A stretch of DNA of 64,000 nt from a bacterium (GCA_021814695.1 JAKAHY010000001.1:45278-109277); one strand, 5' to 3'; positions 5,270-49,290 are shown, numbered from the stretch's first letter. The notes: a model not told the origin generated them from the sequence alone. A program made the numbers and translations.

Positions 5270-6256
5270 ATGACGGTGAAAAATATTTATATAGCGACAG
5301 CTTCCGTTTGCGCAGTGATTATTGCGGTATTTGTTTTATACTTTATGTTTTTGAGTTCTCCCGGGGGTGGGGCCGAAACGCGTCAATTTATTGTCGGCAG
5401 AAATCAGACAAGCACTCCTGCAATTATCGGAATGCTTAAAATCCAAGGATTTATCAGAAGCGAATGGGTATTTGACTTACTACTCAATTTTTACGGTTCG
5501 GGGTCAATTTTACCCGGAGGTTATGCCATCTCGAAATCTATGAATGCCTTGGATGTTGCCAAATTACTGTCCAAAAATCCTTCACAATTATGGGTAGTAA
5601 TACCGGAAGGATTAAGAAAAGAAGAAATAGCAAATATTCTTTCTCAAAAACTGGGATGGACCGATTCTCAGAAATCGGAATGGATTACCAAAGATACGAC
5701 GGCCGACTCAAATTATTCAGAAGGAGTATATTTTCCCGATACTTATCTTATACCCGTTGGAGAAACTCCTATCCAAACGGCAAACCGTCTGAGAGCGCAT
5801 TTTGAAGAAAAATTTTCTCCATATTCAAAAACAGCGTCTGAAAAAAATATAAAGTGGACGACAGTACTGACATTGGCATCAATAATTCAGCGGGAGGCAG
5901 CCGGTACGGGCGATATGGCTTTAATTTCTGGAATCCTTTGGAATCGACTCTTGGCTTCGCCGCCGATGAAGCTTCAAATTGATGCTACGGTTCAATATGC
6001 TCGCGGAGATACCGGTGGCGGATGGTGGGCTCCGATTACGGTTGCGGATGAAAATATTAATTCTCCTTACAATACTTATCTTCATTCGGGCCTGCCACCG
6101 CACCCGATCTGTAATCCCGGAATTGAAGCAATCAAGGCTGCCTTGTCGCCGGAGACTACCGATTGCTTATATTACATCCATGATTCATCCGGAATAATAC
6201 ATTGTTCTGCAACTTATAAGGAACATCAGCAAAATATTCAGAAATATTTGAAGTAA
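5270..6256 (+). CDS. mltG: Endolytic murein transglycosylase MltG (YceG family)
   Basis: N-terminal TM helix and a YceG-like C-terminus (SPYNTYLHSGLPPHPICNPG, ...LYYIHDSSG). Confidence 0.85.
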   Translation: MTVKNIYIATASVCAVIIAVFVLYFMFLSSPGGGAETRQFIVGRNQTSTPAIIGMLKIQGFIRSEWVFDLLLNFYGSGSILPGGYAISKSMNALDVAKLLSKNPSQLWVVIPEGLRKEEIANILSQKLGWTDSQKSEWITKDTTADSNYSEGVYFPDTYLIPVGETPIQTANRLRAHFEEKFSPYSKTASEKNIKWTTVLTLASIIQREAAGTGDMALISGILWNRLLASPPMKLQIDATVQYARGDTGGGWWAPITVADENINSPYNTYLHSGLPPHPICNPGIEAIKAALSPETTDCLYYIHDSSGIIHCSATYKEHQQNIQKYLK

Positions 6257-6370
6257 AATTGATTTAAAATACAATTTTACCCCCATTTTAACTACTTGAT
6301 TTAAGCTTCGGCTCAAAGTAAACTGATACTCAGAAATTTGCTTTGACAACTGAAAAAGGAGGAGGAGAGT

Positions 6371-7165
6371 ATGGAAAAAGCCAAAGGGTTTCTCTTTGAT
6401 ATTACCAAATGTAAGCTCTGCGGAGCCTGCTGGATTGCCGATAAAGAACGCAACAAACTGCCGATTCCCGAAGGTGATTTCACGAAAGATAAGCTTTCGG
6501 AAAATGCTTTTTTGGAGATGGACAGAAGGCATGACAGAGGAGTCAGATTTTCCTGTATGCATTGCCTGATTCCTACCTGCGCTTCTGTTTGCCCCGTGGC
6601 TGCTTTCGAAAAGACTTCCATCGGCGCGGTAATTTATCACAAAGACCGTTGCATCGGATGCAGATACTGTGTTTTCGGGTGCCCGTTTAATGTTCCAAAA
6701 TATGAGTGGGATAAACCGCTTCCTTATGTAAGAAAGTGCGATTTCTGTTATTCCAGAATTATTGACGGCAAACAACCGGCATGCGCCCAAGCGTGTCCGA
6801 CAGGAGCCCTGATTTTTGGAAACAGAGATGATTTGATCCTCGAGGCTCATAGGCGCATAAGAGAAAACTCCAATTATGTTGATCATATATATGGTGAGCA
6901 TGAAGTTGGAGGAACGTCTCTTTTGCTGATTTCCGATATTTCCATGTATAAGCTTGGCTATCCGGGAAATTTGTCCGATGGGGCCGTACCGTCTTTGACT
7001 TGGGAAGTTTTGGAAAAGATTCCTAACGTAGTGCTTATAGGCGGAACATTTTTGGCCGGATTGTGGTGGCTTACCAACAGACGAAATGAAGTAATGCAAG
7101 CCGAATCAGGAAAGAAAGATAATTCTTCTGATACCGAGTCCGGAAGCGAGGGAGGTGGAAAGTGA
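6371..7165 (+). CDS. 4x[4Fe-4S] ferredoxin-type iron-sulfur subunit (HybA/PsrB/NrfC/DsrO-like) with C-terminal TM anchor
   Basis: Four Cys clusters: CKLCGAC, CMHCLIPTCASVCP, CIGCRYCVFGCP and CDFCYS...CAQACP. Strong SD AAGGAGGAGGAG. No obvious signal peptide. C-terminal hydrophobic helix. Confidence 0.85.
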   Translation: MEKAKGFLFDITKCKLCGACWIADKERNKLPIPEGDFTKDKLSENAFLEMDRRHDRGVRFSCMHCLIPTCASVCPVAAFEKTSIGAVIYHKDRCIGCRYCVFGCPFNVPKYEWDKPLPYVRKCDFCYSRIIDGKQPACAQACPTGALIFGNRDDLILEAHRRIRENSNYVDHIYGEHEVGGTSLLLISDISMYKLGYPGNLSDGAVPSLTWEVLEKIPNVVLIGGTFLAGLWWLTNRRNEVMQAESGKKDNSSDTESGSEGGGK

Positions 7166-8724
7166 AAAAACTTCTGAAGTCGGTAAGGCTTTGGTGGCTA
7201 TTACCGATGGCGGTTTTTGGAGCCGGCGGATACAGCATCTTCGTAAGATTCGTTAAAGGACTAGGAGCAAGCACTCATCTTAGCGACTCATTCCCTTGGG
7301 GTCTTTGGGTAGGATTTGATGTTTTGTGCGGAGTAGCGTTAGCTGCGGGAGCTTTTACTTTGAGCGCGGCAGTGTACGTTCTTCATCTTGAAAAATACAA
7401 ACCATTGGTGCGTTCCGCTATCCTGACCGGTACTATCGGATATCTTCTGGTTATTTTCGGTCTGATTATGGATTTAGGACATCCATACCGGATTTGGCAT
7501 CCGCTAATCATGTGGAATCCACATTCGGTGATGTTTGAAATCTCATGGTGTGTAACGCTGTACACGACCGTGCTATTTATGGAGTTCAGTCCGTTTCTGT
7601 TTGAAAAGCTGAAATGGAAAAAAGCTCTTAGGGCAGTGCACGCTGTAATCATTCCGCTTGTAATTTTAGGAGTCGTTCTATCAACGTTGCACCAGTCGTC
7701 ACTGGGGTCACTGTTTCTCATCGTACCTTATAAGCTGAATCCTCTATGGTATACGCCTTGGCTGCCGGTATTTTTCTTTATGTCGGCAATTGCTCTCGGT
7801 TGTGCCATGGTGATTGTTGAATCCTTCATCAGCTCGGTTCTGTTCAGAAGGGGATTGGAAATCGACCTTTTGTCAAATTTGGGCAAGGTTCTTGTTGTTA
7901 TTCTGTCCATTTATGGACTGGCGCGATACCTGGACTTGTCCAGTCGGGGCGCTCTCGGGTTAATTTTCCAACCAGGATTCGAACATGCGATGTTTTTGGC
8001 AGAGATTCTTCTGGCTATCATCGCTCCCATTGGCCTGCTCATATTTCCGAGAGTACGTCGGAATAAACTCGGATTGTTTATGAGTGCCACAATGGTTGTT
8101 GTCGGATTTATTCTCAACCGATTCAATACCAGCATGACCGGAATGGTCCGTTTCTCGGGAGTTAAATATTTACCGAGTTGGATGGAGATATCGGTATCTT
8201 TCATGTTGCTGACGATAGGGTTGATTCTTTTTGCTATAGCAGCCAAGCATTTGAAGATTTTTGACGAAGATTCTCCATGTCTATTACCATGGCAGACATG
8301 CAGGGATAATGTAGTTTGTTGTTTGCCGACTCCGGCCAAGGTTGCAATATTCTCAGCGTGGGCATTTGCATTGGTGCTGATTTGGACAGGAGTCAATGAC
8401 TTTGCAAGATTTAAGCCCTTGAATCATCCTACTCATACCGAATCGGCGGCCAAAAGCGAGCCTAATGATTTATCTCAATACCCTAATCTTCCTAAGGATT
8501 TTACCTTCTCTAAAACTGACCCGGACATTGGTTTGGTGACATTCAGCCATTCTGACCACTTTCTTGTTGGTGCCGAATGCAAGGATTGCCACGAGCATGC
8601 ATTCAGTATTATCAGTACCGATAAGAAAGGCGCAATAACTGATTATCATTCTCAAAAATATTGCGGCAGCTGCCATGACGGTAAATCGGCGAGTAACGAT
8701 TGTATCAGTTGCCACAAGAAATAA
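7162..8724 (+). CDS. NrfD/PsrC/HybB-like polytopic membrane subunit fused to a C-terminal triple-CxxCH (tri-heme cytochrome c-like) domain
   Basis: About 10 TM helices with the NrfD-like pattern (GLWVGFDVLCG...). The C-terminal ~70 aa carry CKDCHEH, CGSCHDG and CISCHKK. The start overlaps the FeS gene by 4 nt. Confidence 0.8.
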   Translation: MKKLLKSVRLWWLLPMAVFGAGGYSIFVRFVKGLGASTHLSDSFPWGLWVGFDVLCGVALAAGAFTLSAAVYVLHLEKYKPLVRSAILTGTIGYLLVIFGLIMDLGHPYRIWHPLIMWNPHSVMFEISWCVTLYTTVLFMEFSPFLFEKLKWKKALRAVHAVIIPLVILGVVLSTLHQSSLGSLFLIVPYKLNPLWYTPWLPVFFFMSAIALGCAMVIVESFISSVLFRRGLEIDLLSNLGKVLVVILSIYGLARYLDLSSRGALGLIFQPGFEHAMFLAEILLAIIAPIGLLIFPRVRRNKLGLFMSATMVVVGFILNRFNTSMTGMVRFSGVKYLPSWMEISVSFMLLTIGLILFAIAAKHLKIFDEDSPCLLPWQTCRDNVVCCLPTPAKVAIFSAWAFALVLIWTGVNDFARFKPLNHPTHTESAAKSEPNDLSQYPNLPKDFTFSKTDPDIGLVTFSHSDHFLVGAECKDCHEHAFSIISTDKKGAITDYHSQKYCGSCHDGKSASNDCISCHKK

Positions 8725-8817
8725 GAGATAAAAATTAATAATCAACGCAGTTGACTGTTCGGCTAAAAGTATTAAGATGAAGCCAGAAACTCACAACCAA
8801 CCCAAAAAGGAGGAGGC

Positions 8818-9267
8818 ATGGGACCGCTGGTAGTTGTGGTGCTCACCATGGCCGTTTGCATCTTTCTGTTATTCCTGTTTCTCTTTTTCCTGATGTGGAG
8901 CTCGTGTCGGTTTGAAAAATGGTTCAGTAAGTTTGAGGAAGAGGTGAAGGAACCAAATACCTTGTGGCAGAAATTTTGCGCTTGGATTGGTAATATCACA
9001 ATGTCCACTCTCACCATATTTATGTGTGAGAAATGTAAGCAAGCATGTGAGGAAAAGAAGGAGATGCTCATGAGGGCCCTATTGTTTTCTTTCTGGACCG
9101 GCCTTGTTGGCGTTATCGGCTACTATCTCGGTGTTTACGGAATGTCACCGAAATTCCTTTACGCTCTTGCGGTCGGAGGTTTCTCCGTCTTGGTTTTTGT
9201 CGCGATCCGTTATCGCGCCCACAAAACTCTCAAGTCCGAAAATTCGGACGTCGAGAAACAAAATTAA
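8818..9267 (+). CDS. Hypothetical membrane protein (2-3 TM, Cys-containing loop)
   Basis: Strong SD AAAGGAGGAGG. Hydrophobic segments. It sits directly downstream of the FeS/NrfD pair, and a terminator-like hairpin with a T-run follows it (~9282-9308). Confidence 0.5.
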   Translation: MGPLVVVVLTMAVCIFLLFLFLFFLMWSSCRFEKWFSKFEEEVKEPNTLWQKFCAWIGNITMSTLTIFMCEKCKQACEEKKEMLMRALLFSFWTGLVGVIGYYLGVYGMSPKFLYALAVGGFSVLVFVAIRYRAHKTLKSENSDVEKQN

Positions 9268-9334
9268 GTACTTTAAACACAGCCATCCATTTTGGGTGGT
9301 TTTTTTGTATGTTAAAGTGGTACTATTTTTAAAT

Positions 9335-9907: not shown

Positions 9908-9987
9908 AGATATTTTTGACATTGACGCCAAGAGGTGTTTTTATATAATCAGCAACCAACATATATCAGCTAGGGAAAGGAGAGTTC

Positions 9988-10764
9988 ATGAAGTGGCCAA
10001 CTCAAGTAGTTCTTGTACGGCACGGGCAGTCGGAATTTAACGTTCTTCGGGTTATAAAAGAGCGTGATCCTTTGTATCGGAAATTTAAGCAAGCTTATGA
10101 AGAAGATTTTACTTCGGATAAAGCCAGAAATCTTGCGGAAATGGTTCTTGAAAAATACAGATTGGATCTCGGTGATTACCAAACACGCCTGACATCAATA
10201 GGAATTGATCAGGCAAAAATTACGGGAGCCGGATTGAGCTTGGACATTGAGCCTCCCGACGTAATCTACGTTTCTCCGTATTTTAGAACGCGCCAGACAC
10301 TCGATGCTATGACAAATGCCTGGCCGGAACTATCATCTGCAAAAACAACAACGGATGACAGAATCCGGGAACAGGAACACGGGATACAGATACTTTATAA
10401 CGATTGGCGGGTATTTCATGTTTTTCATCCCGAACAAAAGAGGATGAGGGATCTTTTCGGGGCCTACTGGTATCAATATCCTCAAGGAGAATCAATGGCT
10501 CAGGTTCGTGACAGAATCAGATCGTTCCTGACGACTCTCGTACGTGAACATGCCGGACAAAAAGTCCTGCTTGTAACTCACCACGTAACCATTCTTTGCT
10601 TTCTTGCCTCTATGGAGCGCTTAACTCCCGAAAAGGTAACAGATATGGATAAGGATTTGAAACCGGTTAACTGCGGAGTTACCTTCTACATCGGCAACCC
10701 CGATAAAGGTCAGGATGGACGTCTCGAATTGACGGAGTACAACCGCAAGTATTATTCGGATTAG
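9988..10764 (+). CDS. Histidine phosphatase family protein (phosphoglycerate mutase-like)
   Basis: LVRHGQSEFN is the RHG catalytic motif. SD GGAAAGGAGAG. Upstream promoter-like TTGACG-17-TATAAT. Confidence 0.75.
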   Translation: MKWPTQVVLVRHGQSEFNVLRVIKERDPLYRKFKQAYEEDFTSDKARNLAEMVLEKYRLDLGDYQTRLTSIGIDQAKITGAGLSLDIEPPDVIYVSPYFRTRQTLDAMTNAWPELSSAKTTTDDRIREQEHGIQILYNDWRVFHVFHPEQKRMRDLFGAYWYQYPQGESMAQVRDRIRSFLTTLVREHAGQKVLLVTHHVTILCFLASMERLTPEKVTDMDKDLKPVNCGVTFYIGNPDKGQDGRLELTEYNRKYYSD

Positions 10765-10905
10765 TATCAGCAGCAGATAAACGCTGCTTTTTAATATAAA
10801 ATTTGTCGATTCCTGCCATGCTAATAATCCACTTTACAATCCGGATAATGTTCTATACTTATACAAAGCGATAAAAGGTTATTTTAATAAGCACTCATAA
10901 TAAAT

Positions 10906-11379
10906 ATGAAAAAAACTTGGATTATTATTCTGGTGATAGTGGTAGTTATTATAGTCGGCTACTTACTTTGGATGAATCCGACTCAACCGGCATATCAGCA
11001 ACCGGCCGCAACAACAGGGGGCGGCGCCAATCAACCGGCACCGGCATTAATTCTTAATACAGCCATAGACCCGACTCTTGGCGCATATCTTGTGGCATCA
11101 AATGGAATGGCTCTTTATGTTTTTGCAAATGATAAACCCGGAATAAGTAATTGCGCCGGCGTTTGCGCAACCAACTGGCCGCCTTATGAAGTGACGGCAA
11201 CTACGCCACTGGCGGCAGCATCCGGCATTGATGGAAATCTTAATACAATTATAAGAAGTGACGGCTCTATGCAACTCACTTATAATTCCATGCCTCTTTA
11301 TTTTTGGCATCTAGATTCAAAACCGGGAGACGTTACGGGTAATGGTTTTGGAGGGGTTTGGTTTTTGGCAAAACCATAA
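10906..11379 (+). CDS. Secreted/lipoprotein-like protein with COG4315/Lipoprotein_15-type repeats
   Basis: N-terminal TM/signal segment. Repeats of the G.YLV..NGM.LYVF..D......C.G.CA..WPP type occur twice. Confidence 0.55.
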   Translation: MKKTWIIILVIVVVIIVGYLLWMNPTQPAYQQPAATTGGGANQPAPALILNTAIDPTLGAYLVASNGMALYVFANDKPGISNCAGVCATNWPPYEVTATTPLAAASGIDGNLNTIIRSDGSMQLTYNSMPLYFWHLDSKPGDVTGNGFGGVWFLAKP

Positions 11380-11461: not shown

Positions 11462-11854
11462 ATGAATAAATTACCGTTTCACATTCTTAGAATAGGGATT
11501 GCCATAACATTTATCTGGATTGGATTAATGATATTTAAGGACCCGCAAGGATGGAGTTCGTTTATCCAGCCTTGGGCAGCCAATCTTATTCCAATTCCTA
11601 TTCAGCAGGCAATGATTATTGCGGCAATTGCCGATGTTTTAATAGGACTGCTTCTTCTGGCTAACCTTTGGGTTTGGATTGTAGCGGCTGTGGGAGTTTT
11701 AAATATTGCTGCAGTTCTTATCGTTTCCGGAATTACCGGAGTTACTGTCAGGGATATAGGCCTTCTTGCCGCCGCTGTGGCATTGGCGATTGATTCAATG
11801 CCTTCTGTAATAATGTCAAAACTATTTAAAAAACAGATTCGAAAAAATTATTAA
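11462..11854 (+). CDS. Hypothetical membrane protein (4 TM)
   Basis: Hydrophobic profile only. Confidence 0.45.
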   Translation: MNKLPFHILRIGIAITFIWIGLMIFKDPQGWSSFIQPWAANLIPIPIQQAMIIAAIADVLIGLLLLANLWVWIVAAVGVLNIAAVLIVSGITGVTVRDIGLLAAAVALAIDSMPSVIMSKLFKKQIRKNY

Positions 11855-12261: not shown

Positions 12262-15036
12262 ATGTCTAGGAAGCAGGTAGTGGCACCTCCGAAGACCAAA
12301 ACGGAATTGCTGATCGATACGGTCTTTAATTTCATGACGGATAATCCGTCGTATATTTTCAAGGGATTTGGGGATGCGGATAAGTTTGAGATTACGAAAA
12401 AGAAATTCGCCAAGGTTTTGGAATCGCTAGTGGAATCCAGGCACCTTGTCCGAATTTCAGTCGACGATTCGGGTGAGCCTTGGTATTTTTCCAACGGCTA
12501 CAACCATTATTCGCCGAACTTTCTTTTTGAGGTAATCCCAGCCGGCGTCAGGGACGATATCCTCAGGCCTCTTGAAAGAGGGGACGAGAAATCGATTTCC
12601 GATTTGGCTCGAAACTATTTCGGTTCCGAGACCGTAGGTCTCAATTTCATCGAAACGACTCTTGAATATTTCGTTTCCAGAAAGCTCATCGGTTCCAGTG
12701 GCAGAAAGGCATTGCGTCTTTACAAAAAGACTCAACTTGGGCTGGAGCTTGGTATCGATAAGCAAAGCATGGATACGATGGCTAATCGAGAATTGGAAAG
12801 CACGCTGCTTTTGCAACGCAAGGGCGAAGTGCTATCCAAAATAAATTCTCTGGAAGATATCGATAAACTTTTGGACGAGGAGTTGGAGTCTATCATCGTG
12901 GGTAATATTGACGTCACATCAAGCACCGACGGCGATTTCTTCAATGTTGTATTTCTTAACGAAATTCTTTTCGGCAACAAGTTTACCGATACCGACATTT
13001 TGAATTGGGCACTTGAGAGGGTAAATCCCAACCTTACGGTTGCAAGCGGCTTGATTCAGGGAAATTTCCTTGGCGTTAAGATGGATAAGGCGAGAATCCT
13101 TGCCGAAAATTCCGGTCTTAACGAGATCGATGCCCAATTCAGGGCTGCTAAACTTCTCAACGAGAAGCTTGAGCAGGTCACCAAAGGACAGGTTTTTAAT
13201 GTCCTTGGCGACGACGATTGGGATCTTGCCGACAGCTACGCTCAGCTGATGCACAGGGCCGAAGGCGGCATCATCAGCTATGGATTCAATTCCAAGTCTT
13301 TGAGCGATGAGCTCAAGCGGCGGTTGGATATGCTTGCTTACAGGCGTAAGCGGCGCATCCAGTATGAGATCATTACTCCCTATCAACTTCGCGTCGGTCG
13401 TTCTCTCTTGAACCGAGATGAGGTTTGGGAAGCTACGGCTAACGGCGACGATAGCAAGGATAGGGTGTATAAGGGCGAATATCGTCTGATTATCGAAATT
13501 CTTGTAGCTAAGAAAGTCGGAATTGATTATCCCAAGTCGTACGATAAGGTTGTGGACATCGGATCATTGTTTGACGGAGATATGAGCAAGAAGAGGATTA
13601 TCACGCCCAACAGTCTTTTCTTAAAGGCAGGGGACAGGACTATTCGCTTCACTCATAACCCTTCGTTTTCGAACATCACTCAGTATTGGAATACTATCGA
13701 TGTTTTGAATCGTATCATGCGCAGTCTCGGTGCTCGAAAGACGGAAGAGATTCCGTTTGTCGTAGCCGAAGGCCATCAGGAGCGATTTTTTGCCACCTTC
13801 ATTCCTTCGGGTTTGAACGACAAGACCGACGACGGTCATTGGTTTATGAACCTTCCGGGTTTGCAGAATCCGATTTTGCAGGCCAAAGGAAGAATTCCCG
13901 AGTTCGACTCAAGGATTTTGAGTTCCAAGTCTCATCGGCAGATTACCTTCCGTAAGGAACCGGTAACTCCGGGAGTTCTGGATTTCGGAGTCCATATGGA
14001 CGGTCGGGTGCAATTCAGGATTTTGAACCACATGGTCAAGAACGTCATTGAACGTTCTGCCGGAATGCCGGAAGAGGTGCATAGGGTTGCTTTCCTTACG
14101 GACTTGCAATTCGCTTCGCTTACGATGCATCCCGAACTTGTAATGAAGTTCCTGGATTATGCGCTATTCACTCTGGGCTGCGATGCGGTTATGATCGGCG
14201 GCGACGTCATTCAGGGCATCAACTATCCGCAGACGTTTTCCGAAAACAGGCCATTCAGGCTTGTGAGTATCGATTCCCAACAGCGATTCGTTCTGGCAAC
14301 ACTTTTCCCGTTCCTGGCTACAGGACCGAAGCTTAAGAAGGTCCTTGGAGTTATCGGTAACCATGAGTGGAACACGTTTGGCGCCAATCTTACCGGTCCC
14401 AATTTCCTGGCATTTTTGGAACAGGTGCTTCAGGGTTATGTTCTTGGGATGAAGACGGCGGGCGGTACTCCAACTTTGGAAGATATTGCTATTGTCAGTC
14501 GTATTCGCATGCTTAGCGTTGAAGCCAAACAGGGCGGAGCGATTGTAAACTGGCCGTTTATTTCTCAAGAATTTTCGGGATTCAAGGTTGCGATGTCCCA
14601 TCAGTTCCAGCGCTTCGGCGGCGGAACTCCTGTGGGCCAGCAAATGAAGTGGATTGAGAATATGTCAACTGCCGCAAGCGATTACGATGTTCTTGTCGGC
14701 GGCGACAAGCACTCCATTTGGATGGCTCAGGTTGCCGATAAGCTTTTGTTGCAGCTGGCAGCGGCGGCTCACCAGAGCGGTTACGAGCTGCACACCGGTC
14801 TTCGCAGCACGATTATGTTCACCGACATCACATTCTCCAACAAGGACGGCATCACGGTTGAGATGGTTCCTCGGGGATTTCTCGAAAATTATTACACCTG
14901 CGTTTCGCCGATTCTTGCCGGTAAGGACGAGCTTTTGAAGCTTCCTGCCCCCGGAACTCCGGGATACGATCAGGGCAAGCTTTCTCCTTATGTAGAGTCA
15001 ATTATCGACAATATCACTCAGTATCGTCACGTATAA
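12262..15036 (+). CDS. Large (924 aa) uncharacterised protein with C-terminal calcineurin-like phosphoesterase-like motifs; locally GC-rich
   Basis: SD GGGAGGAAACTG. C-terminal motifs IGGDVIQG (GDxx) and VIGNHEW (GNHE), while motif I is degenerate (FLTDLQF). The N-terminal ~600 aa show nothing I recognise. GC is visibly higher than in the flanks. Confidence 0.75.
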   Translation: MSRKQVVAPPKTKTELLIDTVFNFMTDNPSYIFKGFGDADKFEITKKKFAKVLESLVESRHLVRISVDDSGEPWYFSNGYNHYSPNFLFEVIPAGVRDDILRPLERGDEKSISDLARNYFGSETVGLNFIETTLEYFVSRKLIGSSGRKALRLYKKTQLGLELGIDKQSMDTMANRELESTLLLQRKGEVLSKINSLEDIDKLLDEELESIIVGNIDVTSSTDGDFFNVVFLNEILFGNKFTDTDILNWALERVNPNLTVASGLIQGNFLGVKMDKARILAENSGLNEIDAQFRAAKLLNEKLEQVTKGQVFNVLGDDDWDLADSYAQLMHRAEGGIISYGFNSKSLSDELKRRLDMLAYRRKRRIQYEIITPYQLRVGRSLLNRDEVWEATANGDDSKDRVYKGEYRLIIEILVAKKVGIDYPKSYDKVVDIGSLFDGDMSKKRIITPNSLFLKAGDRTIRFTHNPSFSNITQYWNTIDVLNRIMRSLGARKTEEIPFVVAEGHQERFFATFIPSGLNDKTDDGHWFMNLPGLQNPILQAKGRIPEFDSRILSSKSHRQITFRKEPVTPGVLDFGVHMDGRVQFRILNHMVKNVIERSAGMPEEVHRVAFLTDLQFASLTMHPELVMKFLDYALFTLGCDAVMIGGDVIQGINYPQTFSENRPFRLVSIDSQQRFVLATLFPFLATGPKLKKVLGVIGNHEWNTFGANLTGPNFLAFLEQVLQGYVLGMKTAGGTPTLEDIAIVSRIRMLSVEAKQGGAIVNWPFISQEFSGFKVAMSHQFQRFGGGTPVGQQMKWIENMSTAASDYDVLVGGDKHSIWMAQVADKLLLQLAAAAHQSGYELHTGLRSTIMFTDITFSNKDGITVEMVPRGFLENYYTCVSPILAGKDELLKLPAPGTPGYDQGKLSPYVESIIDNITQYRHV

Positions 15037-15116: not shown

Positions 15117-15353
15117 ATGAAACAAAACGAACATATTTTGGACAGAATTATTAGAGTATTGATTGCGTTGGGGTTATTTTATGTGGGCATCACCTGGTCC
15201 ATGTCCAGTTTTCTGAGAATTGTTTTGGCAATTGTCGGAGGGATATTAATTGTTACTGCCGTCACCGGATATTGCGCCCTGTATTCACTGTTTGGAATAA
15301 ATACAAAAAAATCTTCTTCAGATACTAAGGAACCCGATAAAAAAGGTCAATAA
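15117..15353 (+). CDS. DUF2892/YgaP-like small membrane protein
   Basis: D..IR...G..L...G......GG.L..TA.TGYC.LY.L.GI.T pattern. Confidence 0.5.
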   Translation: MKQNEHILDRIIRVLIALGLFYVGITWSMSSFLRIVLAIVGGILIVTAVTGYCALYSLFGINTKKSSSDTKEPDKKGQ

Positions 15354-15447: not shown

Positions 15448-16038
15448 ATGAAATACGAAGCAAAAAACTTCGAGCATCTCTTGGGTTTAAAGGGATTTAG
15501 CGACAATGCCTTAAAAACTCATTTTGCTCTCTATCAGGGTTATGTAAACAATACAAATAAATTAAGAGATGAGTTGCACGAATTGGCTAATGGGGGAAAA
15601 CTCGATTCGGTTCAACACGCCGAACTGAAAAGAAGGCTCGGATGGGAGTTTGACGGAATGAGGCTGCATGAATATTATTTCGGCGCTCTTTCTAAAGAAT
15701 CCCAGCCATTATCGGAATCTAGCGCTTTGTACAAGAAGATAGAAAAAGATTTCGGAAGTTTTGGCGATTGGGAAAAAATGTTTCGTGCCGTTGCATCACA
15801 ACGGGGGATAGGGTGGGCGATTTTGTACTATGACGTTCACGGTGATCAATTGTTGGACGTCTGGGTCAATGAGCATGATGCGGGACATTTGGCGGGATGT
15901 GTGCCTCTTGTGAATATGGATGTATTTGAACATGCATTTATGCTGGATTACGGAACAAAAAAAGCCGATTACATTTCAGCCTTTATGGATGCCGTGGATT
16001 GGAAAGAGGTTTCCAAACGTTTCGATTCCGCCAAATAA
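15448..16038 (+). CDS. sodA: Fe/Mn superoxide dismutase family protein (divergent)
   Basis: The C-terminal DVFEHAFMLDYGTKKADYISAFMDAVDWKEVSKRF matches the SOD motif DVWEHAYYL..N.R.DYI.AFW.VVNW. Candidate metal ligands H, H, D and H are present. Confidence 0.7.
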   Translation: MKYEAKNFEHLLGLKGFSDNALKTHFALYQGYVNNTNKLRDELHELANGGKLDSVQHAELKRRLGWEFDGMRLHEYYFGALSKESQPLSESSALYKKIEKDFGSFGDWEKMFRAVASQRGIGWAILYYDVHGDQLLDVWVNEHDAGHLAGCVPLVNMDVFEHAFMLDYGTKKADYISAFMDAVDWKEVSKRFDSAK

Positions 16039-43504: not shown

Positions 43505-44014
43505 TCAACCAAAAAAGATCGAGTATATAAATTTGGTAAAGGGATCCAAGTTGGGCCCATAAACTATTATTCCTCCCAAAACACTTGTCACCAGCATCGC
43601 CGCCAATCCGATTATCGCCATGGGAATGGCAATCCGGCGTTTAAGTATAAAGTCGGCAATCTTTCTGAAAAAAGAGAACACTCCGGAAAATCCGGGCAAT
43701 AATTCCAAATACTGCAGGGTAAACCATCTGACCGCATATGCGCCGGCGAGAATCCCAAAAATTACCGTCGTAGCGCCGGCAAATGTTTTGTGTACACTAA
43801 GCACGCTCCTTAGAGTCCATTGCGAAGAATGTTCGGCTAATGAGCCGGTACCGAGAGCTGCCAGAGCCCCTATTGTCCCAAAAAAGACAAGGAAAAATTT
43901 TATCGGGTCCCAGGGAAAACGCGGATACCATTTGGTTAAAGGCAATATTTCAATAATCGCATAGGTAATCAGAAGCGCTATCGGAAAATGCACAATAATC
44001 GGGTGAATGTTCAT
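43505..44014 (-). CDS. DUF2231-like membrane protein
   Basis: HPIIVHFPIAL N-terminus and 4-5 TM helices. Confidence 0.55.
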   Translation of the reverse strand: MNIHPIIVHFPIALLITYAIIEILPLTKWYPRFPWDPIKFFLVFFGTIGALAALGTGSLAEHSSQWTLRSVLSVHKTFAGATTVIFGILAGAYAVRWFTLQYLELLPGFSGVFSFFRKIADFILKRRIAIPMAIIGLAAMLVTSVLGGIIVYGPNLDPFTKFIYSIFFG

Positions 44015-44096
44015 ATGGAAATTATACCAAATTTATTCGGGTTATATAAAAACCTTCTTGAATTAAGAGGCTTTTTGGTTTAATTTTATAAAGTCT

Positions 44097-44167
44097 TGGG
44101 GGGTCGTCTAACGGTAGGACATGGGCCTTTGAAGCCCAGTATATAGGTTCGATTCCTATCCCCCCAG
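44097..44167 (+). tRNA. tRNA-Gln (anticodon UUG), CCA not encoded
   Basis: Acceptor TGGGGGG/CCCCCCA (U1:A72), D-stem GTC/GAC, anticodon stem TGGGC/GCCCA with loop CTTTGAA, T-arm ATAGG-TTCGATT-CCTAT, G73. A terminator hairpin follows at ~44171-44200. Confidence 0.8.
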
Positions 44168-44593
44168 CAAAATAAATACACTTTTGCGGTGTATTTTATT
44201 TTGCGGGGAAAAAAGCAAACTGCTTTGCTTTTGTCAGGGATTCGAACGACGGAGCATGTTCCGCTCAGCAGAGCGTAACGCGAGTCGGTGTCTAGACCAA
44301 TTCTACTCGACGGAGTAGAATTGAGTTGAAGGAGAATTCTTGTCCCCCAGCCAACTTGAGCGGAGTTATTCCGATCGAGACATATCATAACAAAAGACAC
44401 GCGCCGAGAGGCGTGCGTCTTTTTTTGTTATTTATCCTACCAGATTAGATCTTTTATACCAGGTTTATTTTTTACTACTCTGAACCCCTACTCTCCCCAA
44501 GAATTTTTATCAGAATTTAAAGCCTCATACCAAAGTTCTGAAGATTCTCATCATTTTGGCTGTCAAGTATGTAAAACTATTTTACATATATAT

Positions 44594-44622
44594 TTGCATT
44601 TGACTTAAAAATATGCTATAAT
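44594..44622 (+). promoter_or_regulatory. Sigma70-like promoter of lexA-like operon (TTGCAT-17-TATAAT), near-leaderless
   Basis: -35 at 44594-44599 and -10 at 44617-44622, only 6 nt before the ATG at 44629. The palindrome ATGTAAAA-CTA-TTTTACAT at 44569-44587 lies just upstream. Confidence 0.45.
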
Positions 44623-44628
44623 GGAATT

Positions 44629-45276
44629 ATGAATAAAATTCAAATAGAGCTTTTGAACCTCTCTAAGCACCAGGATTTAGGCTCAATGAGCCTACGCCAA
44701 ATAGCAAAGATTATTGGGGTTGAAAATAAGCCCCAGATTGTAAAACACCACCTTTTACAGCTAGAAAAGGCCGGATTACTGCAAATAAACCTCAAAAAGG
44801 GCTTCATAAGGCCTGTTAGCAGGGGTTTTGGGCAGGATTCTGGCAAGAATCAAGTATATTCACTTCCTATCGTAGGAGCCGCAAATTGTGGTCCAGCAAC
44901 CATATTTGCAGACGAGAGGATTGAAGGATATTTGAAAGTATCGTCAAAACTGCTCCCGAGAAAAAAACATGACCTTTTTGTCCTTATTGCCGAGGGGCCG
45001 TCAATGAATAAGGCTGAAATTCGTGAAGGTGTTGTAATTGAAGACGGTGATTTTGTTGTTGTAGATAAATCATACAAAAATCCAAAAAACGGAGATATTA
45101 TTGTAGCAGTAATAGACGGAATGGGAACAATCAAAAAATATAGAGAGGATAAGAAAGAAAAACTCATTATTCTTGAATCAGAATCCACTGAAAACTATTT
45201 GCCCATATTTATTCATGAAGGTGATGACTTCATGATAAGCGGAAAGGTCATTGATGTAATTAAGAAACCTAGATAA
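44629..45276 (+). CDS. lexA: LexA-like repressor (wHTH + S24 autopeptidase domain)
   Basis: N-terminal LexA-type wHTH. C-terminal S24 with Ser in GPSMN and Lys in TIKKY. The candidate Cys-Gly cleavage site (AANCGP) is UmuD-like. Confidence 0.8.
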   Translation: MNKIQIELLNLSKHQDLGSMSLRQIAKIIGVENKPQIVKHHLLQLEKAGLLQINLKKGFIRPVSRGFGQDSGKNQVYSLPIVGAANCGPATIFADERIEGYLKVSSKLLPRKKHDLFVLIAEGPSMNKAEIREGVVIEDGDFVVVDKSYKNPKNGDIIVAVIDGMGTIKKYREDKKEKLIILESESTENYLPIFIHEGDDFMISGKVIDVIKKPR

Positions 45277-45281
45277 ATACT

Positions 45282-48080: not shown

Positions 48081-48595
48081 TGATTCTTTTTAATAATCAA
48101 TTTAATAAAAAGACCTATCAAATTATAGCTTCTGTGACGATTGCTGTAATTTTGATCTTGGGATTCTTGGTGTTAGGTAATTACTTTTCTGAAGTAATGC
48201 TAATAGTTAGTTTTATTGTTTTTGGTATTTTACTTTTATTTTTTACGATCGCTGCCGGTCTGGCTGTTTTGAAAGCTCTGTTTTATGTGGCAGCAGAAAT
48301 TTCTCTGTTAATATATTTGTCTAAATCATATTGTGAAGTACCCGCTTCCAAACTGACGCTCGCTAGCAATAATGCACTAAAGAGTCTGCTAGTTGTTGGT
48401 GGGTTGTATATTGTGATTAGTTTTGGAAAATCTCTGATAGATAAGGTAAAAAGCGACTATAAAAATATTGAAAGTGAAAAGTGGTCCTGGGAAAAAGTAA
48501 CTACGGTAGCTTTCTATTTGTTATTTGCATTTCTGATTGTTTGGCAAATTTATAGAGTAATTGGACCGATAATTGTCAATTTGTGTATATATTAA
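48080..48595 (+). CDS. 4-TM membrane protein translationally coupled (TAATG) to KAP NTPase
   Basis: Its ATG overlaps the KAP stop by 1 nt. Four hydrophobic helices. Confidence 0.6.
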   Translation: MILFNNQFNKKTYQIIASVTIAVILILGFLVLGNYFSEVMLIVSFIVFGILLLFFTIAAGLAVLKALFYVAAEISLLIYLSKSYCEVPASKLTLASNNALKSLLVVGGLYIVISFGKSLIDKVKSDYKNIESEKWSWEKVTTVAFYLLFAFLIVWQIYRVIGPIIVNLCIY

Positions 48596-48639
48596 AAATT
48601 ATTCAGTAAAGGTCATAATTAATAATAAAACAAGACACC

Positions 48640-48936
48640 ATGACTAAATTTCATCCATCTCAAAAATTTACTAAGGTTAACATTGCCAAAGTTCCAAAAA
48701 ACAAAGCCATTATATATAAAATTAAGAGTCAGTCCGGCGACAATATATATACTGGAATTGCTGGACGCAGTCGTCCCCAAGAAAGATTATTAGAACATAA
48801 GAAATTCAAGAAAGATGCAATACCTGGAGGAGTAAAATTCCAGTATGCTCAAGCCAAAACAAAAGCTTTAGCACATAAGATTGAGAAATCAATCATTCGG
48901 AAAGAAAAACCAAGGTTTAATATCCAACACAAATAA
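48640..48936 (+). CDS. GIY-YIG domain small protein (UPF0213/YhbQ-like)
   Basis: AIIYKIKSQSGDNIYTGIAGRS...ERLLEHK carries the GIY...YxG, R and E/H motifs. Confidence 0.55.
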   Translation: MTKFHPSQKFTKVNIAKVPKNKAIIYKIKSQSGDNIYTGIAGRSRPQERLLEHKKFKKDAIPGGVKFQYAQAKTKALAHKIEKSIIRKEKPRFNIQHK

Positions 48937-48975
48937 AAAGGTCGATATTGATTATTTAATAAATTAAAAACATCA

Positions 48976-49290
48976 ATGGAAATACAAATTAAAAATCTTA
49001 GTGGTACAAGTGACAAAACTTGTACATGTGGCACTTGGTTAGATCATTGGGTAAAGATTAGCGGGAAACCTCTTCCTAATTACTGTTCTATATCCATGTG
49101 TTATCAAAAACCAGAGGTAGGAGCTCACGTTAAGAAAGCCGATCTTCTTAATTTTAGTACCTATATAGTTCCTATGTGCAAAGCATGTAACGCAAAGACT
49201 GAAGTTTTGACTCTTAAAGATTCAGACTTGCTTGTTTCTGCTAATGTGGCAGAAACTTGTGGAAAGCAAAAACCTTTACTTAGGCGGTAA
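48976..49290 (+). CDS. Cys/His-rich hypothetical protein (putative zinc-binding)
   Basis: CTCGTWLDHW...C...C...CKAC. A hairpin with a T-run follows at ~49326-49372. Confidence 0.4.
   Translation: MEIQIKNLSGTSDKTCTCGTWLDHWVKISGKPLPNYCSISMCYQKPEVGAHVKKADLLNFSTYIVPMCKACNAKTEVLTLKDSDLLVSANVAETCGKQKPLLRR

What the first reader, a model, noticed from the sequence alone, without database searches (positions are those of the whole stretch)
6371..9267. Membrane electron-transfer module: 4x[4Fe-4S] subunit + NrfD-like subunit fused to a tri-CxxCH domain
Seen: one gene has four ferredoxin-type Cys clusters and a C-terminal TM anchor. Overlapping it by 4 nt is a ~10-TM NrfD/PsrC/HybB/DsrP-like protein. 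That protein's last ~70 residues carry three CxxCH motifs (CKDCH, CGSCH, CISCH) interspersed with extra His, as in class III tri-heme cytochromes such as DsrJ. A small Cys-containing membrane protein (8818..9267) follows. No catalytic (molybdopterin or NiFe) subunit is adjacent, and the FeS protein lacks a Tat/Sec signal. This is a DsrOP/J-, HybAB- or ACIII-like transmembrane electron conduit with an unusual NrfD-cytochrome fusion. It sits in a genome whose other content looks CPR-like (small genome style, no other respiratory genes in the window), where c-type cytochromes and quinone-coupled complexes are generally not expected.
Basis: partly seen in the sequence, partly recalled or inferred. 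Interest (0 to 1): 0.7.

Follow-up and report, generated by a model that had tools for sequence, protein, structure and literature searches.

The report
Quinone-cytochrome membrane module in CPR bacterium
A tiny-genome (CPR/Paceibacteria) bacterium carries a three-gene operon for an iron-sulfur protein, a quinone-binding membrane protein fused to a three-heme cytochrome, and a small cysteine-motif membrane protein. It belongs to a widespread but unstudied family probably borrowed from Acidobacteria-like bacteria, and it is one of the few signs of respiratory-type electron transfer in this group.

Summary
The operon (6371-9267, + strand) encodes three proteins:
- a HybA/HmcB-like four-cluster FeS protein with a C-terminal anchor and no export signal;
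- a HybB/HmcC-like NrfD protein whose 11th transmembrane helix carries a c7-type triheme domain to the outer face;
- a small membrane protein with a Cys motif.

- The NrfD-c7 fusion is not unusual. More than 100 protein clusters, from hundreds of genomes, share this exact architecture, mostly in Acidobacteriota but also KSB1, Myxococcota and Poribacteria. I found no paper describing it.
- It is not Dsr- or ACIII-type, and it is not an Hmc or Hyb fragment.
- The CPR origin is real. The module sits mid-contig in a 336-kb Paceibacteria contig, was recovered in five assemblies, and has native-like GC.
- The CPR copies form a small monophyletic clade, sister to the acidobacterial ones. Their own traits are a Cys-to-Asp cluster ligand, a cytoplasmic CX7CX6CC loop, the small CxxCxxxC protein, and no GcvH-like partner genes.

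The most likely function is electron exchange between the membrane quinone pool and an outside partner through c7 and the FeS chain.

Three things remain unresolved: how a signal-less FeS protein reaches the outer face (a family-wide puzzle), and where heme c attachment and the quinone come from.

The parts
6248..6275 (+). sigma-70-like promoter candidate (TTGAAG-16-TACAAT) upstream of the operon
   Evidence: This is a consensus match only, and the number of such sites in the region is not above the shuffled expectation.
6371..7165 (+). HybA/HmcB-like ferredoxin-type subunit, 264 aa. It has four Cys groups (the fourth ligand of group I is Asp24) and a C-terminal anchor at about aa 217-235 (nt 7019-7075) followed by RRN. 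It has no signal peptide.
   Evidence: Pfam Fer4_11, 75 bits. NCBIfam HmcB 226 bits and HybA 191 bits, both below the equivalog cut-offs. 33% identity to E. coli HybA over the full length except the Tat signal. Cys groups. RBS and upstream in-frame stop.
7162..8274 (+). NrfD-family (HybB/HmcC-like) 10-TM quinone-interacting core, aa 1-371 of the 520-aa fusion protein
   Evidence: Pfam NrfD, 77 bits. HmcC 297 bits and HybB 285 bits. 35% identity to E. coli HybB over 346 aa, with D58, R89, Y99, E148 and H184 conserved as D53, R84, Y94, E141 and H177; all five are invariant in the family. The AF2 model's best PDB match is ACIII ActC.
8275..8325 (+). Cys-rich loop C-x7-C-x6-CC (aa 372-388, SPCLLPWQTCRDNVVCCLP), predicted to be cytoplasmic. 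Present only in the CPR-like clade.
   Evidence: Alignment of clade members. Absent in the acidobacterial L006 and L007. Sidedness inferred from the K/R count.
8338..8397 (+). Extra 11th transmembrane helix (aa 393-412) that carries the C-terminal domain to the outer face
   Evidence: The AF2 helix 390-416 has pLDDT of about 96. K/R bias is 21 on inside loops against 6 on outside loops.
8524..8724 (+). c7-type triheme cytochrome domain (aa 455-520): FSHSDH, CKDCH, DYH, CGSCH, CISCH
   Evidence: PF14522, 37 bits, and TIGR04257, 46 bits, both above cut-off. The best PDB sequence match is the Geobacter GSU1996 c7-type domain 3ov0_A, E = 7e-14. The three CxxCH motifs and H463/H466 are invariant.
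8818..9267 (+). Small membrane protein (149 aa) with the motif C-x15-C-x2-C-x3-C (C54, C70, C73, C77; nt 9025-9048 encode CEKCKQAC). It is the third gene of the operon.
   Evidence: A gene with the same M-C-E-x-C-[KR]-x-[AS]-C-[ED] motif follows the NrfD gene in L004, L005, L010, L090 and L091. It has no Pfam or NCBIfam family. It has only one phmmer hit among 1.84 billion representatives. RBS.
9281..9301 (+). Terminator-like hairpin with a T-run after the third gene
   Evidence: 9-bp stem, 4 GC pairs, then TTTTTG.

Best explanation
**What it is.** A three-gene operon encodes a minimal quinone-coupled electron-transfer module of the HybAB/HmcBC (NrfD-family) type.

**Proposed path.** The membrane subunit binds quinone or quinol at the outer-face site of its first four-helix bundle and has a HybB-like proton path. 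The four-cluster FeS protein docks on that outer face. The c7 triheme domain is tethered by an 11th TM helix and sits beside it. Electrons therefore run: outside redox partner <-> three hemes <-> four FeS clusters <-> quinone pool. This makes it a quinol:cytochrome (or cytochrome:quinone) oxidoreductase. It resembles Nhc, Qrc and Geobacter Cbc4, but with the cytochrome fused to the membrane subunit.

**Origin.** The operon belongs to a large uncharacterised family centred on Acidobacteriota. A Paceibacteria (CPR) lineage acquired it by lateral transfer long enough ago to ameliorate and diversify.

**What the CPR clade changed.** It dropped the family's cytoplasmic GcvH-like partners and its regulators. 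It gained a cytoplasmic Cys loop and a small CxxCxxxC membrane protein.

**Shown:** domain identities, conserved functional residues, topology bias, synteny, phylogenetic position and CPR host.

**Inferred:** docking side of the FeS protein, direction of electron flow, physiological partner, and the role of the Cys elements.
For: - **Domain calls.**
- **HybB residues.** The HybB residues reported as needed for quinone binding and proton transfer (Lubek 2019, as summarised in PMC8076601) align to invariant residues here.
- **Topology.** 21 K/R on predicted inside loops against 6 on outside loops; the same bias holds across 46 homologues. TM11 is confidently helical.
- **Outer face is the conserved face.** Outside loops have mean conservation 0.82 with 31 of 87 positions invariant. 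Inside loops have 0.57 with 6 of 91. This fits a docking and Q-site face on the outside.
- **FeS anchor.** The FeS protein aligns to HybA through the C-terminal anchor and the RRN that follows it.
- **Heme domain under selection.** The three CxxCH motifs and the two N-terminal distal His are invariant in 46 sequences and retained in all nine full-length CPR-clade members, although the domain is only 47% identical overall.
- **Cytochrome association across the family.** Relatives carry a fused 10-heme domain (L055) or a separate signal-bearing decaheme (L047, L052), and sensor kinases with one CxxCH. This links the family to periplasmic cytochrome electron transfer.
- **Resemblance to QrcA.** There is a weak match of aa 445-519 to the C-terminus of QrcA.
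- **Genuine CPR gene.** The module lies mid-contig in a 335,669-bp contig and appears in five assemblies. GC is within about 1 SD of neighbouring genes. The clade is monophyletic and sister to Acidobacteriota.
- **Quinone context.** NDH-2-type enzymes are common in CPR, and one lies about 9 kb downstream of the module in a Yanofskybacteria MAG.
Against: - **No export signal.** The FeS protein has no export signal in any of 82 loci, and no Tat-signal partner is encoded nearby. Its arrival on the outer face is unexplained.
- **No heme c attachment gene seen.** There is no CcsA/CcmF/CcmC-type WWD motif in about 84 kb around the module, nor in four other CPR-clade loci.
- **No biosynthesis genes seen.** No quinone or heme biosynthesis genes are on record in the reachable region.
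- **One member lacks c7.** One CPR-clade member (L091/P0011) ends after TM11 and has no c7 domain.
- **Cytoplasmic partners unaccounted for.** Non-CPR members carry cytoplasmic GcvH-like partners, and an all-outside electron path gives them no role.
- **No experimental data** exist for any family member in the searchable literature.
Confidence: 0.6

Rival explanations
1. Split-topology conduit. The signal-less FeS protein stays in the cytoplasm as a tail-anchored protein. There it takes electrons from cytoplasmic partners: the GcvH-like proteins elsewhere, or the Cys loop plus small Cys protein in CPR. The c7 domain sits outside. A quinone bound in or cycling through the NrfD subunit connects the two faces. 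This would be a true cytoplasm-to-outside conduit.
For: - No N-terminal signal in any of 82 FeS homologues, with an in-frame stop 9 codons upstream in the window.
- No Tat components or Tat-signal proteins in the reachable CPR DNA.
- The GcvH-like partners are predicted to be cytoplasmic, either soluble or with an N-out anchor.
- The CPR-specific Cys elements are predicted to be cytoplasmic.
- An NrfD complex with cytoplasm-facing subunits is hypothesised for SoeABC (PMC8076601).
Against: - NrfD proteins have no membrane-spanning cofactor, and their only known Q-site is on the outer side.
- The K/R bias matches HybB orientation and is not inverted as expected for SoeC.
- The outside loops, not the inside ones, are the conserved face.
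- The FeS anchor and RRN align with HybA, whose tail is cytoplasmic and whose FeS domain is periplasmic.
- A highly charged tail of 29-41 residues is unlikely to be translocated.
Confidence: 0.2
2. A laterally acquired module that is not functional as a cytochrome complex in the CPR host. It would be a relic, or a module co-opted for a heme-independent role such as membrane-stress or metal handling through the Cys elements, because the host cannot make or attach heme c or quinone.
For: - No heme c maturation motif in the reachable DNA.
- CPR genomes generally lack respiratory chains (general knowledge; the exception is noted in PMC5220378).
- One clade member has lost the c7 domain.
- The clade has replaced an FeS Cys ligand with Asp.
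Against: - All three ORFs are intact, with strong RBSs.
- The NrfD core is 74% identical across a clade whose linker is only 33% identical. The three CxxCH motifs and the two N-terminal distal His are kept in all full-length members. That is purifying selection, not decay.
- The Q-site and proton-path residues are invariant.
- Only about 84 kb of the genome could be inspected.
Confidence: 0.12
3. Membrane anchor of a hydrogenase or molybdoenzyme encoded elsewhere in the genome. This would be a true Hyb-, Hmc-, Psr- or Nrf-type complex whose catalytic subunit also provides Tat hitch-hiking for the FeS protein.
For: - NCBI annotation pipelines name homologues 'Ni/Fe-hydrogenase cytochrome b subunit'.
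- Signal-less FeS subunits such as FdnH, the best PDB match (1kqf_B), are normally co-exported with a Tat-signal catalytic partner (general knowledge).
Against: - No hydrogenase or molybdopterin gene lies next to the pair in any of about 85 loci from many phyla.
- Scores are below the HybA, HybB, HmcB and HmcC equivalog cut-offs.
- The conserved partners are cytochromes c and GcvH-like proteins instead.
Confidence: 0.06
4. Assembly or binning artefact: acidobacterial DNA wrongly joined to a CPR contig.
For: The nearest non-clade relatives are acidobacterial, at about 50% identity.
Against: - The same gene order appears in five independent assemblies.
- The module is flanked on both sides by CPR housekeeping genes inside a 336-kb contig.
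- GC and GC3 of the two large genes are within about 1 SD of the window's genes.
- The protein is only 50% identical to any acidobacterial protein but 60-71% identical to a clade that includes two Yanofskybacteria MAGs.
Confidence: 0.02

Closest known systems
E. coli hydrogenase-2 membrane module HybA/HybB
   Same: HybB is 35% identical and HybA 33% identical over their full lengths. Both have the same 10-TM NrfD core and the same tail-anchored four-cluster FeS protein with RRN after the anchor. HybB D58, R89, Y99, E148 and H184 are all conserved.
   Different: - There are no hybO or hybC hydrogenase genes.
- The FeS protein lacks HybA's Tat signal (residues 1-38).
- The membrane subunit has an extra TM helix and a triheme domain.
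- Scores are below the NCBIfam equivalog cut-offs.
Desulfovibrio Hmc/Nhc complexes (HmcB/HmcC, NhcB/NhcC)
   Same: These are the best-scoring NCBIfam models (HmcB 226 bits, HmcC 297 bits). The logic is also the same: multiheme cytochrome c -> periplasmic FeS protein -> NrfD subunit -> quinone (PMC8076601).
   Different: - The cytochrome here is a 66-residue c7 domain fused to the NrfD subunit, not a separate 9- or 16-heme protein.
- There are no HmcD, HmcE or HmcF genes.
- Scores are about half the equivalog cut-offs.
- There is no signal peptide on the FeS subunit.
Geobacter sulfurreducens Cbc4 (CbcSTU)
   Same: A three-component inner-membrane set of a membrane-anchored small multiheme cytochrome (CbcS), an FeS protein (CbcT) and a membrane subunit (CbcU). 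It is proposed to be a quinol:cytochrome c oxidoreductase feeding periplasmic PpcA-type c7 cytochromes (PMC13591261).
   Different: Its components are separate genes, and CbcS is a tetraheme. Its own physiological role is still unknown.
Qrc (QrcABCD) menaquinone reductase
   Same: The QrcD, QrcC and QrcA models all give matches (151, 68 and 21.5 bits). The path is cytochrome c -> FeS -> NrfD-type subunit -> menaquinone, with all peripheral parts on the outer side.
   Different: There is no molybdopterin-like QrcB, which is the subunit with the Tat signal. All scores are far below the cut-offs. The cytochrome is fused.
Alternative complex III ActC/ActF
   Same: These are the nearest solved structures to the AF2 model: 6btm_C and 8k9e_C, TM-score 0.57-0.65, probability 1.0. 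They have the same 10-TM fold with terminal helices A and B.
   Different: Identity is only 14-18%. There are no ActA, ActB, ActD or ActE genes. The ACIII FeS module is fused to a molybdopterin-like domain.
c7-type triheme cytochromes (PpcA; GSU1996 domains)
   Same: The pattern F-x-H-x2-H ... CxxCH ... H ... CxxCH ... CxxCH is the same. The best PDB match is a GSU1996 domain, E = 7e-14. TIGR04257 scores above its cut-off.
   Different: Here it is a C-terminal domain of a polytopic membrane protein rather than a soluble periplasmic protein or a tandem 'nanowire' repeat.
Parcubacterium with respiratory genes (Castelle et al. 2017, PMC5220378)
   Same: It is a precedent for multiheme c-type cytochromes and NDH-2 in a CPR genome.
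   Different: That genome has a full chain (SDH, PetAB, NOR, HAO). No NrfD-type module is mentioned: the term occurs zero times in the paper.

Membership tests
NrfD/PsrC family (PF03916) | Profile match above the curated threshold | tested here: met
   77.3 bits against a cut-off of 25.8, residues 39-329.
NrfD/PsrC family (PF03916) | 8-10 TM helices forming two four-helix bundles, with a fold like PsrC/ActC | tested here: met
   The AF2 model (pLDDT 74.5) has helices matching a 10-TM core. Foldseek's top hits are ActC and ActF, probability 1.0, TM-score 0.53-0.65.
NrfD/PsrC family (PF03916) | Conserved polar residues of the quinone site and proton path (HybB D58, R89, Y99, E148, H184) | tested here: met
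   They align to D53, R84, Y94, E141 and H177, all invariant in 46 homologues. Residue roles are taken from PMC8076601.
NrfD/PsrC family (PF03916) | Actually binds quinone or quinol | not testable with these tools
   This needs biochemistry.
HybB / HybA (hydrogenase-2 membrane module; NF008133, NF008134) | Score above the equivalog cut-off | tested here: not met
   HybB scores 285 against 450. HybA scores 191 against 263.
HybB / HybA (hydrogenase-2 membrane module; NF008133, NF008134) | Encoded with the NiFe hydrogenase small and large subunits | tested here: not met
   None in the window, its flanks, or about 85 related loci.
HybB / HybA (hydrogenase-2 membrane module; NF008133, NF008134) | The FeS subunit carries a twin-arginine signal peptide | tested here: not met
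   The alignment starts at HybA residue 39. An in-frame stop lies 9 codons upstream. The signal is absent in 82 homologues.
HmcB / HmcC (NF045715, NF045714) | Score above the equivalog cut-off, and an hmcA(16-heme)/DEF gene context | tested here: not met
   226 against 420 and 297 against 550. There are no HmcA, HmcD, HmcE or HmcF genes nearby.
DsrMKJOP (DsrO, DsrP, DsrJ) | DsrO and DsrP equivalog scores, a DsrJ-type triheme subunit, and adjacent dsrMK | tested here: not met
   DsrP scores 34 against 350 and DsrO 95 against 200. No DsrJ model matched at E <= 0.1. There are no dsrM or dsrK genes in the window.
Alternative complex III | actABCDEF gene set, with the FeS domain fused to a molybdopterin-like ActB1 | tested here: not met
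   There is only fold-level similarity to ActC and ActF. ActB matches the FeS protein at 47-49 bits. There are no other act genes.
c7-type triheme cytochrome domain (TIGR04257 / PF14522) | Profile match above the curated threshold | tested here: met
   TIGR04257 scores 46 against 40. PF14522 scores 37.2 against 24.8.
c7-type triheme cytochrome domain (TIGR04257 / PF14522) | Three CxxCH motifs plus distal His ligands in the PpcA/GSU1996 arrangement | tested here: met
   H463, H466, C473-C476-H477, C501-C504-H505 and C514-C517-H518 are invariant. A His in the consensus DMH motif (DYH in the window) is also conserved but is not in the invariant list. The match to 3ov0_A has E = 7e-14.
c7-type triheme cytochrome domain (TIGR04257 / PF14522) | Located on the extracytoplasmic side, where heme is attached | tested here: met
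   The positive-inside count gives N-in and 11 TM helices, which puts the C-terminal domain outside. This is a prediction, not an experiment.
c7-type triheme cytochrome domain (TIGR04257 / PF14522) | Covalent heme attachment by a Ccm or Ccs system in the same organism | tested here: inconclusive
   No WWD-motif protein in about 84 kb of this genome or in four other clade loci.
Geobacter Cbc4 (CbcSTU)-type quinol:cytochrome c oxidoreductase | Cytochrome c + FeS protein + cofactor-less membrane subunit encoded together | tested here: met
   The composition is the same, with the cytochrome fused. The Cbc4 description comes from PMC13591261.
Geobacter Cbc4 (CbcSTU)-type quinol:cytochrome c oxidoreductase | Sequence orthology to CbcS, CbcT and CbcU | not tested

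The most novel reading that the evidence does not exclude
A lineage of CPR (Paceibacteria/Yanofskybacteria-related) bacteria runs a stripped-down, three-protein respiratory-type module. The module lets an otherwise fermentative episymbiont exchange electrons between a membrane quinone pool (possibly scavenged, and fed by NDH-2) and an outside acceptor or donor such as host-surface cytochromes, minerals or humics. Its HybA-like FeS subunit would reach the outer face by a route that needs no N-terminal signal. A clade-specific cytoplasmic metal or FeS site, built from the CX7CX6CC loop and the small CxxCxxxC protein, would replace the GcvH-like partners of the parent family.
Probability: 0.2. 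Interest if true: 0.8.

Novelty: new variant of a known kind. Interest (0 to 1): 0.5.

Why it matters
- **For CPR biology.** CPR bacteria are regarded as fermentative, without electron-transport chains; a single Parcubacterium has been the noted exception (PMC5220378). A conserved, selected quinone/cytochrome module in a second CPR lineage would mean some of these organisms can dump or take up electrons at the cell surface. That bears on how they live on their hosts.
- **For bioenergetics.** The parent family is present in hundreds of soil and sediment genomes (Acidobacteriota, KSB1, Myxococcota and others). It is machine-annotated as a hydrogenase subunit and appears unstudied.
- **Questions it raises about NrfD-type complexes.** Its signal-less HybA-like subunit, its non-lipoylated GcvH-like partners and its sensor kinases with a single CxxCH motif raise concrete questions about how such complexes are assembled and what they connect.

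Tried and rejected
- **Dsr, ACIII, Nrf, Psr or Ttr identity.** Rejected on NCBIfam scores and gene context.
- **Literature.** Searches for NrfD-like+triheme, NrfD+Patescibacteria, NrfD+cytochrome c7, HybB+GcvH, NrfD+glycine cleavage system H and Yanofskybacteria+cytochrome found no description of the fusion or of the GcvH/HybAB-like operon.
- **Cytochrome c maturation.** A regex for the CcsA/CcmF/CcmC WWD motif found nothing in the window, both flanks and five related CPR-clade loci. This is inconclusive for the whole genome.
- **Tat.** Regex searches for TatA and for twin-arginine signals in the same DNA found nothing. This is a crude test.
- **Window's last gene.** A look-up of 62655-63941 failed because the product is not on record. 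I used MsrB instead.
- **NDH-2 on the same contig.** I queried with the Yanofskybacteria NDH-2. None of the top 120 hits came from the 335,669-bp contig. The result is uninformative, beyond showing that NDH-2 is common in CPR.
- **Small protein.** phmmer against 1.84 billion representatives gave one hit (P0248). Its 2-kb contig shows no NrfD gene directly upstream.
- **Sequence search of PDB with the fusion.** It matched only the c7 part. The membrane part needed fold search.
- **Recent transfer or contamination.** Rejected from composition and from recurrence in five assemblies.
- **Modelling the FeS/NrfD complex.** Not attempted, because the structure tool takes single chains and returns no coordinates or contact confidences.

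Full report
**1. What is in the sequence**

- Both 6371 and 8818 are preceded by AAGGAGGAGG-type ribosome-binding sites.
- A promoter-like site (6248-6275) precedes the first gene, and a hairpin with a T-run (9281-9301) follows the third.
- The three genes therefore look like one operon.
- The flanking genes are unrelated housekeeping genes: obg and mltG/yceG upstream, and a serine hydrolase and a histidine phosphatase downstream.

**2. The FeS protein**

It matches Fer4_11 (75 bits). In NCBIfam it is closest to HmcB (226 bits) and HybA (191 bits), both below the equivalog cut-offs.
- Against E. coli HybA it is 33% identical from HybA residue 39 to the end. That span includes the C-terminal membrane anchor and the RRN that follows it. 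HybA's Tat signal (residues 1-38) has no counterpart.
- An in-frame TGA lies nine codons upstream of the ATG, so a longer N-terminus is excluded.
- Cys groups II-IV are complete.
- Group I reads C-x2-C-x2-C-x3-D. The Asp is shared by all ten CPR-clade copies, while 74 of the 75 other homologues have Cys.

**3. The membrane protein**

Residues 39-329 match NrfD (77 bits). The best NCBIfam models are HmcC (297 bits) and HybB (285 bits), again below cut-off. QrcD scores 151, DsrP 34 and NrfD 15.
- It is 35% identical to E. coli HybB over 346 residues.
- The HybB residues reported as important for quinone binding (D58) and proton transfer (R89, Y99, E148, H184) align to D53, R84, Y94, E141 and H177. 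Those roles come from Lubek et al. 2019, as summarised by Calisto & Pereira, PMC8076601.
- All five are invariant in an alignment of 46 homologues.
- An AlphaFold2 model (mean pLDDT 74.5) gives ACIII ActC and ActF as the nearest solved folds.
- After the 10-TM core come a 32-residue loop, a confidently predicted 11th helix (aa 390-416, pLDDT about 96) and a roughly 110-residue tail.
- The last 66 residues of that tail match Cytochrome_C7 (37 bits, cut-off 24.8) and TIGR04257, the c7-type triheme domain (46 bits, cut-off 40).
- The best PDB sequence match is a c7-type domain of Geobacter GSU1996 (3ov0_A, E = 7e-14).
- H463, H466 and the three CxxCH motifs are invariant; a His in the consensus DMH motif is also conserved.
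- No DsrJ model matched.

**4. Topology**

- Loops predicted to be inside carry 21 K/R. Short loops predicted to be outside carry 6. The means over the 46 homologues are 19.2 and 5.5.
- The protein is therefore N-in with 11 TM helices and the c7 domain outside, which is the side where heme c is attached in bacteria (general knowledge).
- The outside loops are much more conserved than the inside loops: mean 0.82 with 31 of 87 positions invariant, against 0.57 with 6 of 91.
- That is what one expects if the quinone site and the docking surface for the FeS protein are on the outer face, as in Hyd-2, Psr, Qrc and ACIII (PMC8076601).
The extra helix is the device that puts the cytochrome outside.

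**5. The fusion is common, not unusual**

- The protein search returned 7,776 relatives. The 119 listed clusters other than the query's own all carry PF03916+PF14522. JGI names them 'c(7)-type cytochrome triheme protein' and NCBI names them 'Ni/Fe-hydrogenase cytochrome b subunit'.
- Among one-genome-per-species GTDB contigs, 562 stretches encode relatives. In the best 80 loci about half carry the fusion. The phyla include Acidobacteriota (Blastocatellia, Pyrinomonadaceae, Terriglobia, Thermoanaerobaculia, Holophagales), KSB1, Myxococcota, Poribacteria, Gemmatimonas and Fimbriimonadales.
- The remaining loci have an unfused HybB-like gene of about 390 aa.
- Outside CPR the operon is larger and conserved. 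It has one to three GcvH-like genes: two types with an N-terminal TM anchor, and one with a C-x12-C-x6-C-x2-C motif. All lack the lipoyl-lysine by my reading of the sequences.
- After those come the FeS gene, the NrfD(-c7) gene, a HAMP/HisKA kinase that usually has one CxxCH, a sigma-54 response regulator and an M54-peptidase-like gene.
- Some relatives carry a 10-heme domain fused to the NrfD subunit (L055) or a separate signal-bearing decaheme (L047, L052).
- I found no paper describing any of this.

**6. The FeS subunit never has a signal peptide**

- In 82 loci, fused or unfused and from any phylum, the first Cys lies 11-17 residues from the real start. Longer ORF extensions are high-GC read-through and do not resemble Tat signals.
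- No Tat-signal partner is encoded in the operons.
- This conflicts with the outer-face docking inferred in section 4. It is the main unexplained feature of the family.
- The alternative is a cytoplasmic FeS protein. That fits the missing signal and the cytoplasmic GcvH-like partners.
- It conflicts with the HybB-like orientation, with the conserved outer face, with the HybA-like anchor, and with the absence of any membrane-spanning cofactor in NrfD proteins.
- Only SoeABC is thought to face the cytoplasm, and it is thought to do so by inverting the whole membrane subunit.

**7. CPR origin and history**

- The window corresponds to about 153.4-217.4 kb of the 335,669-bp contig DAIENI010000001.1 (GCA_027341185.1).
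- The same gene order occurs in GCA_027423255.1, in an ENA assembly and in two Logan assemblies.
- The window's GluRS is closest to proteins labelled Candidatus Paceibacterota, Pacebacteria, Wolfebacteria and Patescibacteria.
- The window's gene content, read from the Pfam records, is typical of CPR: cell-division and murein genes, ribosomal proteins, and no respiratory or biosynthetic operons.
- GC and GC3 of the two large genes are about 1 SD above the window mean.
- The closest relatives (60-71% identity; P0002-P0011, L004, L005, L010, L090, L091) include two MAGs labelled Candidatus Yanofskybacteria. In a neighbour-joining tree of the NrfD core they form a monophyletic group, sister to the acidobacterial fused clade. 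This tree was not bootstrapped.
- Only one of 185,579 species representatives outside the window's own genome falls in this clade. The trait is therefore rare in CPR and is best read as an old lateral acquisition.

**8. What the CPR clade changed**

It lacks the GcvH-like genes, the kinase and the regulator. It has three traits of its own:
- the Cys-to-Asp change in FeS group I;
- a Cys-rich loop C-x7-C-x6-CC between TM10 and TM11, absent in Acidobacteria;
- a small 2-3-TM protein with the motif M-C-E-x-C-[KR]-x-[AS]-C-[ED], encoded just downstream in every clade locus.

On the small protein and the loop:
- The small protein has no family assignment, and only one phmmer hit among 1.84 billion representatives.
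- By the positive-inside rule, both the loop and the small protein's motif face the cytoplasm. This is inference.
- Together they offer eight or nine Cys. They might form a metal or FeS site that replaces the Cys-motif GcvH-like protein. This is speculation.

On selection within the clade:
- The NrfD core is 74% identical to the window protein, the linker 33% and the c7 domain 47%. Even so, the three CxxCH motifs and the two N-terminal distal His are retained in all nine full-length members.
- One member (L091/P0011) stops after TM11 and has no c7 domain. It sits next to a NOX-like ferric-reductase gene.

**9. Mechanism I consider most likely (confidence about 0.6)**

- The module is a quinone-coupled oxidoreductase in which electrons pass: outside partner <-> c7 hemes <-> FeS chain <-> quinone at the outer-face site of the HybB-like subunit. 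Proton uptake or release would go through the conserved HybB-type path.
- It works like Nhc, Qrc or Geobacter Cbc4 (PMC8076601, PMC13591261), with the cytochrome fused.
- Direction cannot be decided from sequence.
- In a fermentative CPR cell the attractive reading is quinol oxidation with electron disposal to an external acceptor.
- NDH-2 could be the quinone reductase. NDH-2-type proteins are common in CPR, and one lies about 9 kb downstream of the module in L004.
- Not shown: the side on which the FeS protein sits, heme attachment, a quinone source, and the partner.

**10. Limits**

- I could read only about 84 kb of this genome and +/-10 kb in the related clade loci.
- In that DNA there is no CcsA/CcmF/CcmC-type WWD motif, no second multi-CxxCH protein, no TatA-like motif and no twin-arginine signal.
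- A precedent for multiheme cytochromes in a Parcubacterium exists (PMC5220378), so the presence of a c-type cytochrome in CPR is rare but not unheard of.

**11. Verdict**

- The feature is real and correctly described.
- It is a member of a widespread, uncharacterised HybAB/HmcBC-like family rather than a unique fusion.
- Its occurrence in CPR, with clade-specific modifications, is genuine and uncommon.
- I rate it a new variant of a known kind, with interest 0.5.

Noticed in passing
L045 12176-13810; L052 11566-13215; L061 12142-13797; L047 11649-13310; L037 5693-7213; L055 5875-7494: The HAMP/HisKA sensor kinases encoded next to the non-CPR versions of the operon each contain exactly one CxxCH motif. 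This suggests a heme-c-based periplasmic redox sensor, paired with a sigma-54 response regulator, that controls the module.
   Followed up: partly
L006 7303-8818; L007 7209-8837; L045 7739-9150 and 11213-11956: One to three GcvH-like (PF01597) genes flank the FeS/NrfD pair in most non-CPR loci. By eye they lack the lipoyl-lysine. One type has an N-terminal C-x12-C-x6-C-x2-C motif and the others have an N-terminal TM anchor. Their function is unknown. An NCBIfam model named 'GcvH-related protein' from Desulfovibrio gives weak hits.
   Followed up: partly
L055 9357-11594; L047 13317-14642; L052 13199-14548: There are variants of the family in which the NrfD subunit is fused to a domain with 10 CxxCH motifs (a Poribacteria MAG). 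In others a separate, signal-bearing decaheme cytochrome is encoded two genes downstream.
   Followed up: no
L091 11660-13012 (- strand): A NOX-like protein (Ferric_reduct TM domain + FAD_binding_8 + NAD_binding_1) is encoded next to the one CPR-clade module that has lost its c7 domain.
   Followed up: partly
L004 16243-21454: In the Yanofskybacteria MAG GCA_020852375.1, a cluster lies 5-10 kb downstream of the module. It holds an HMA/DsbD_2 membrane protein, a cupredoxin, a copper P-type ATPase and an NDH-2 (Pyr_redox_2 + NDH2_C).
   Followed up: partly
window 44000-50000: A low-GC stretch (0.31-0.36 against about 0.41 elsewhere). It holds an S24/LexA-like peptidase gene (44629-45276), a 932-aa KAP-family NTPase (45282-48080) and several small ORFs with no family. 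It may be a mobile or defence island.
   Followed up: no
window 12262-15036: A 924-aa ORF with no Pfam match at E <= 0.01. It is conserved in position in the other assemblies of this genome.
   Followed up: no
window 11462-11854, 15117-15353, 15448-16038, 60582-61516: Genes linked to oxidative or thiol stress lie in the same window: DoxX (30 bits), a YgaP-like TM protein, an Fe/Mn superoxide dismutase, and MsrA and MsrB. The organism seems to meet oxygen or oxidants.
   Followed up: no
window 43505-44014 (- strand): A 169-aa membrane protein with a sub-threshold DUF2231 match (22.5 bits, cut-off 26.4). I flagged it only as a possible membrane redox-related protein.
   Followed up: partly
L172 639-944: The only detectable homologue of the small Cys-motif protein (P0248, 30% identity, same MCESCKESCE motif) lies on a 2-kb groundwater contig. 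The partial ORF upstream of it is not an NrfD-c7 C-terminus, so the small protein may also occur away from the module.
   Followed up: partly
L081 (Bacteroidota MAG), FeS gene upstream of 9980-11215: This is the only non-CPR homologue in which the fourth group-I ligand position is also Asp (CIACYECERAD). It appears to be an independent occurrence of the Cys-to-Asp change.
   Followed up: no
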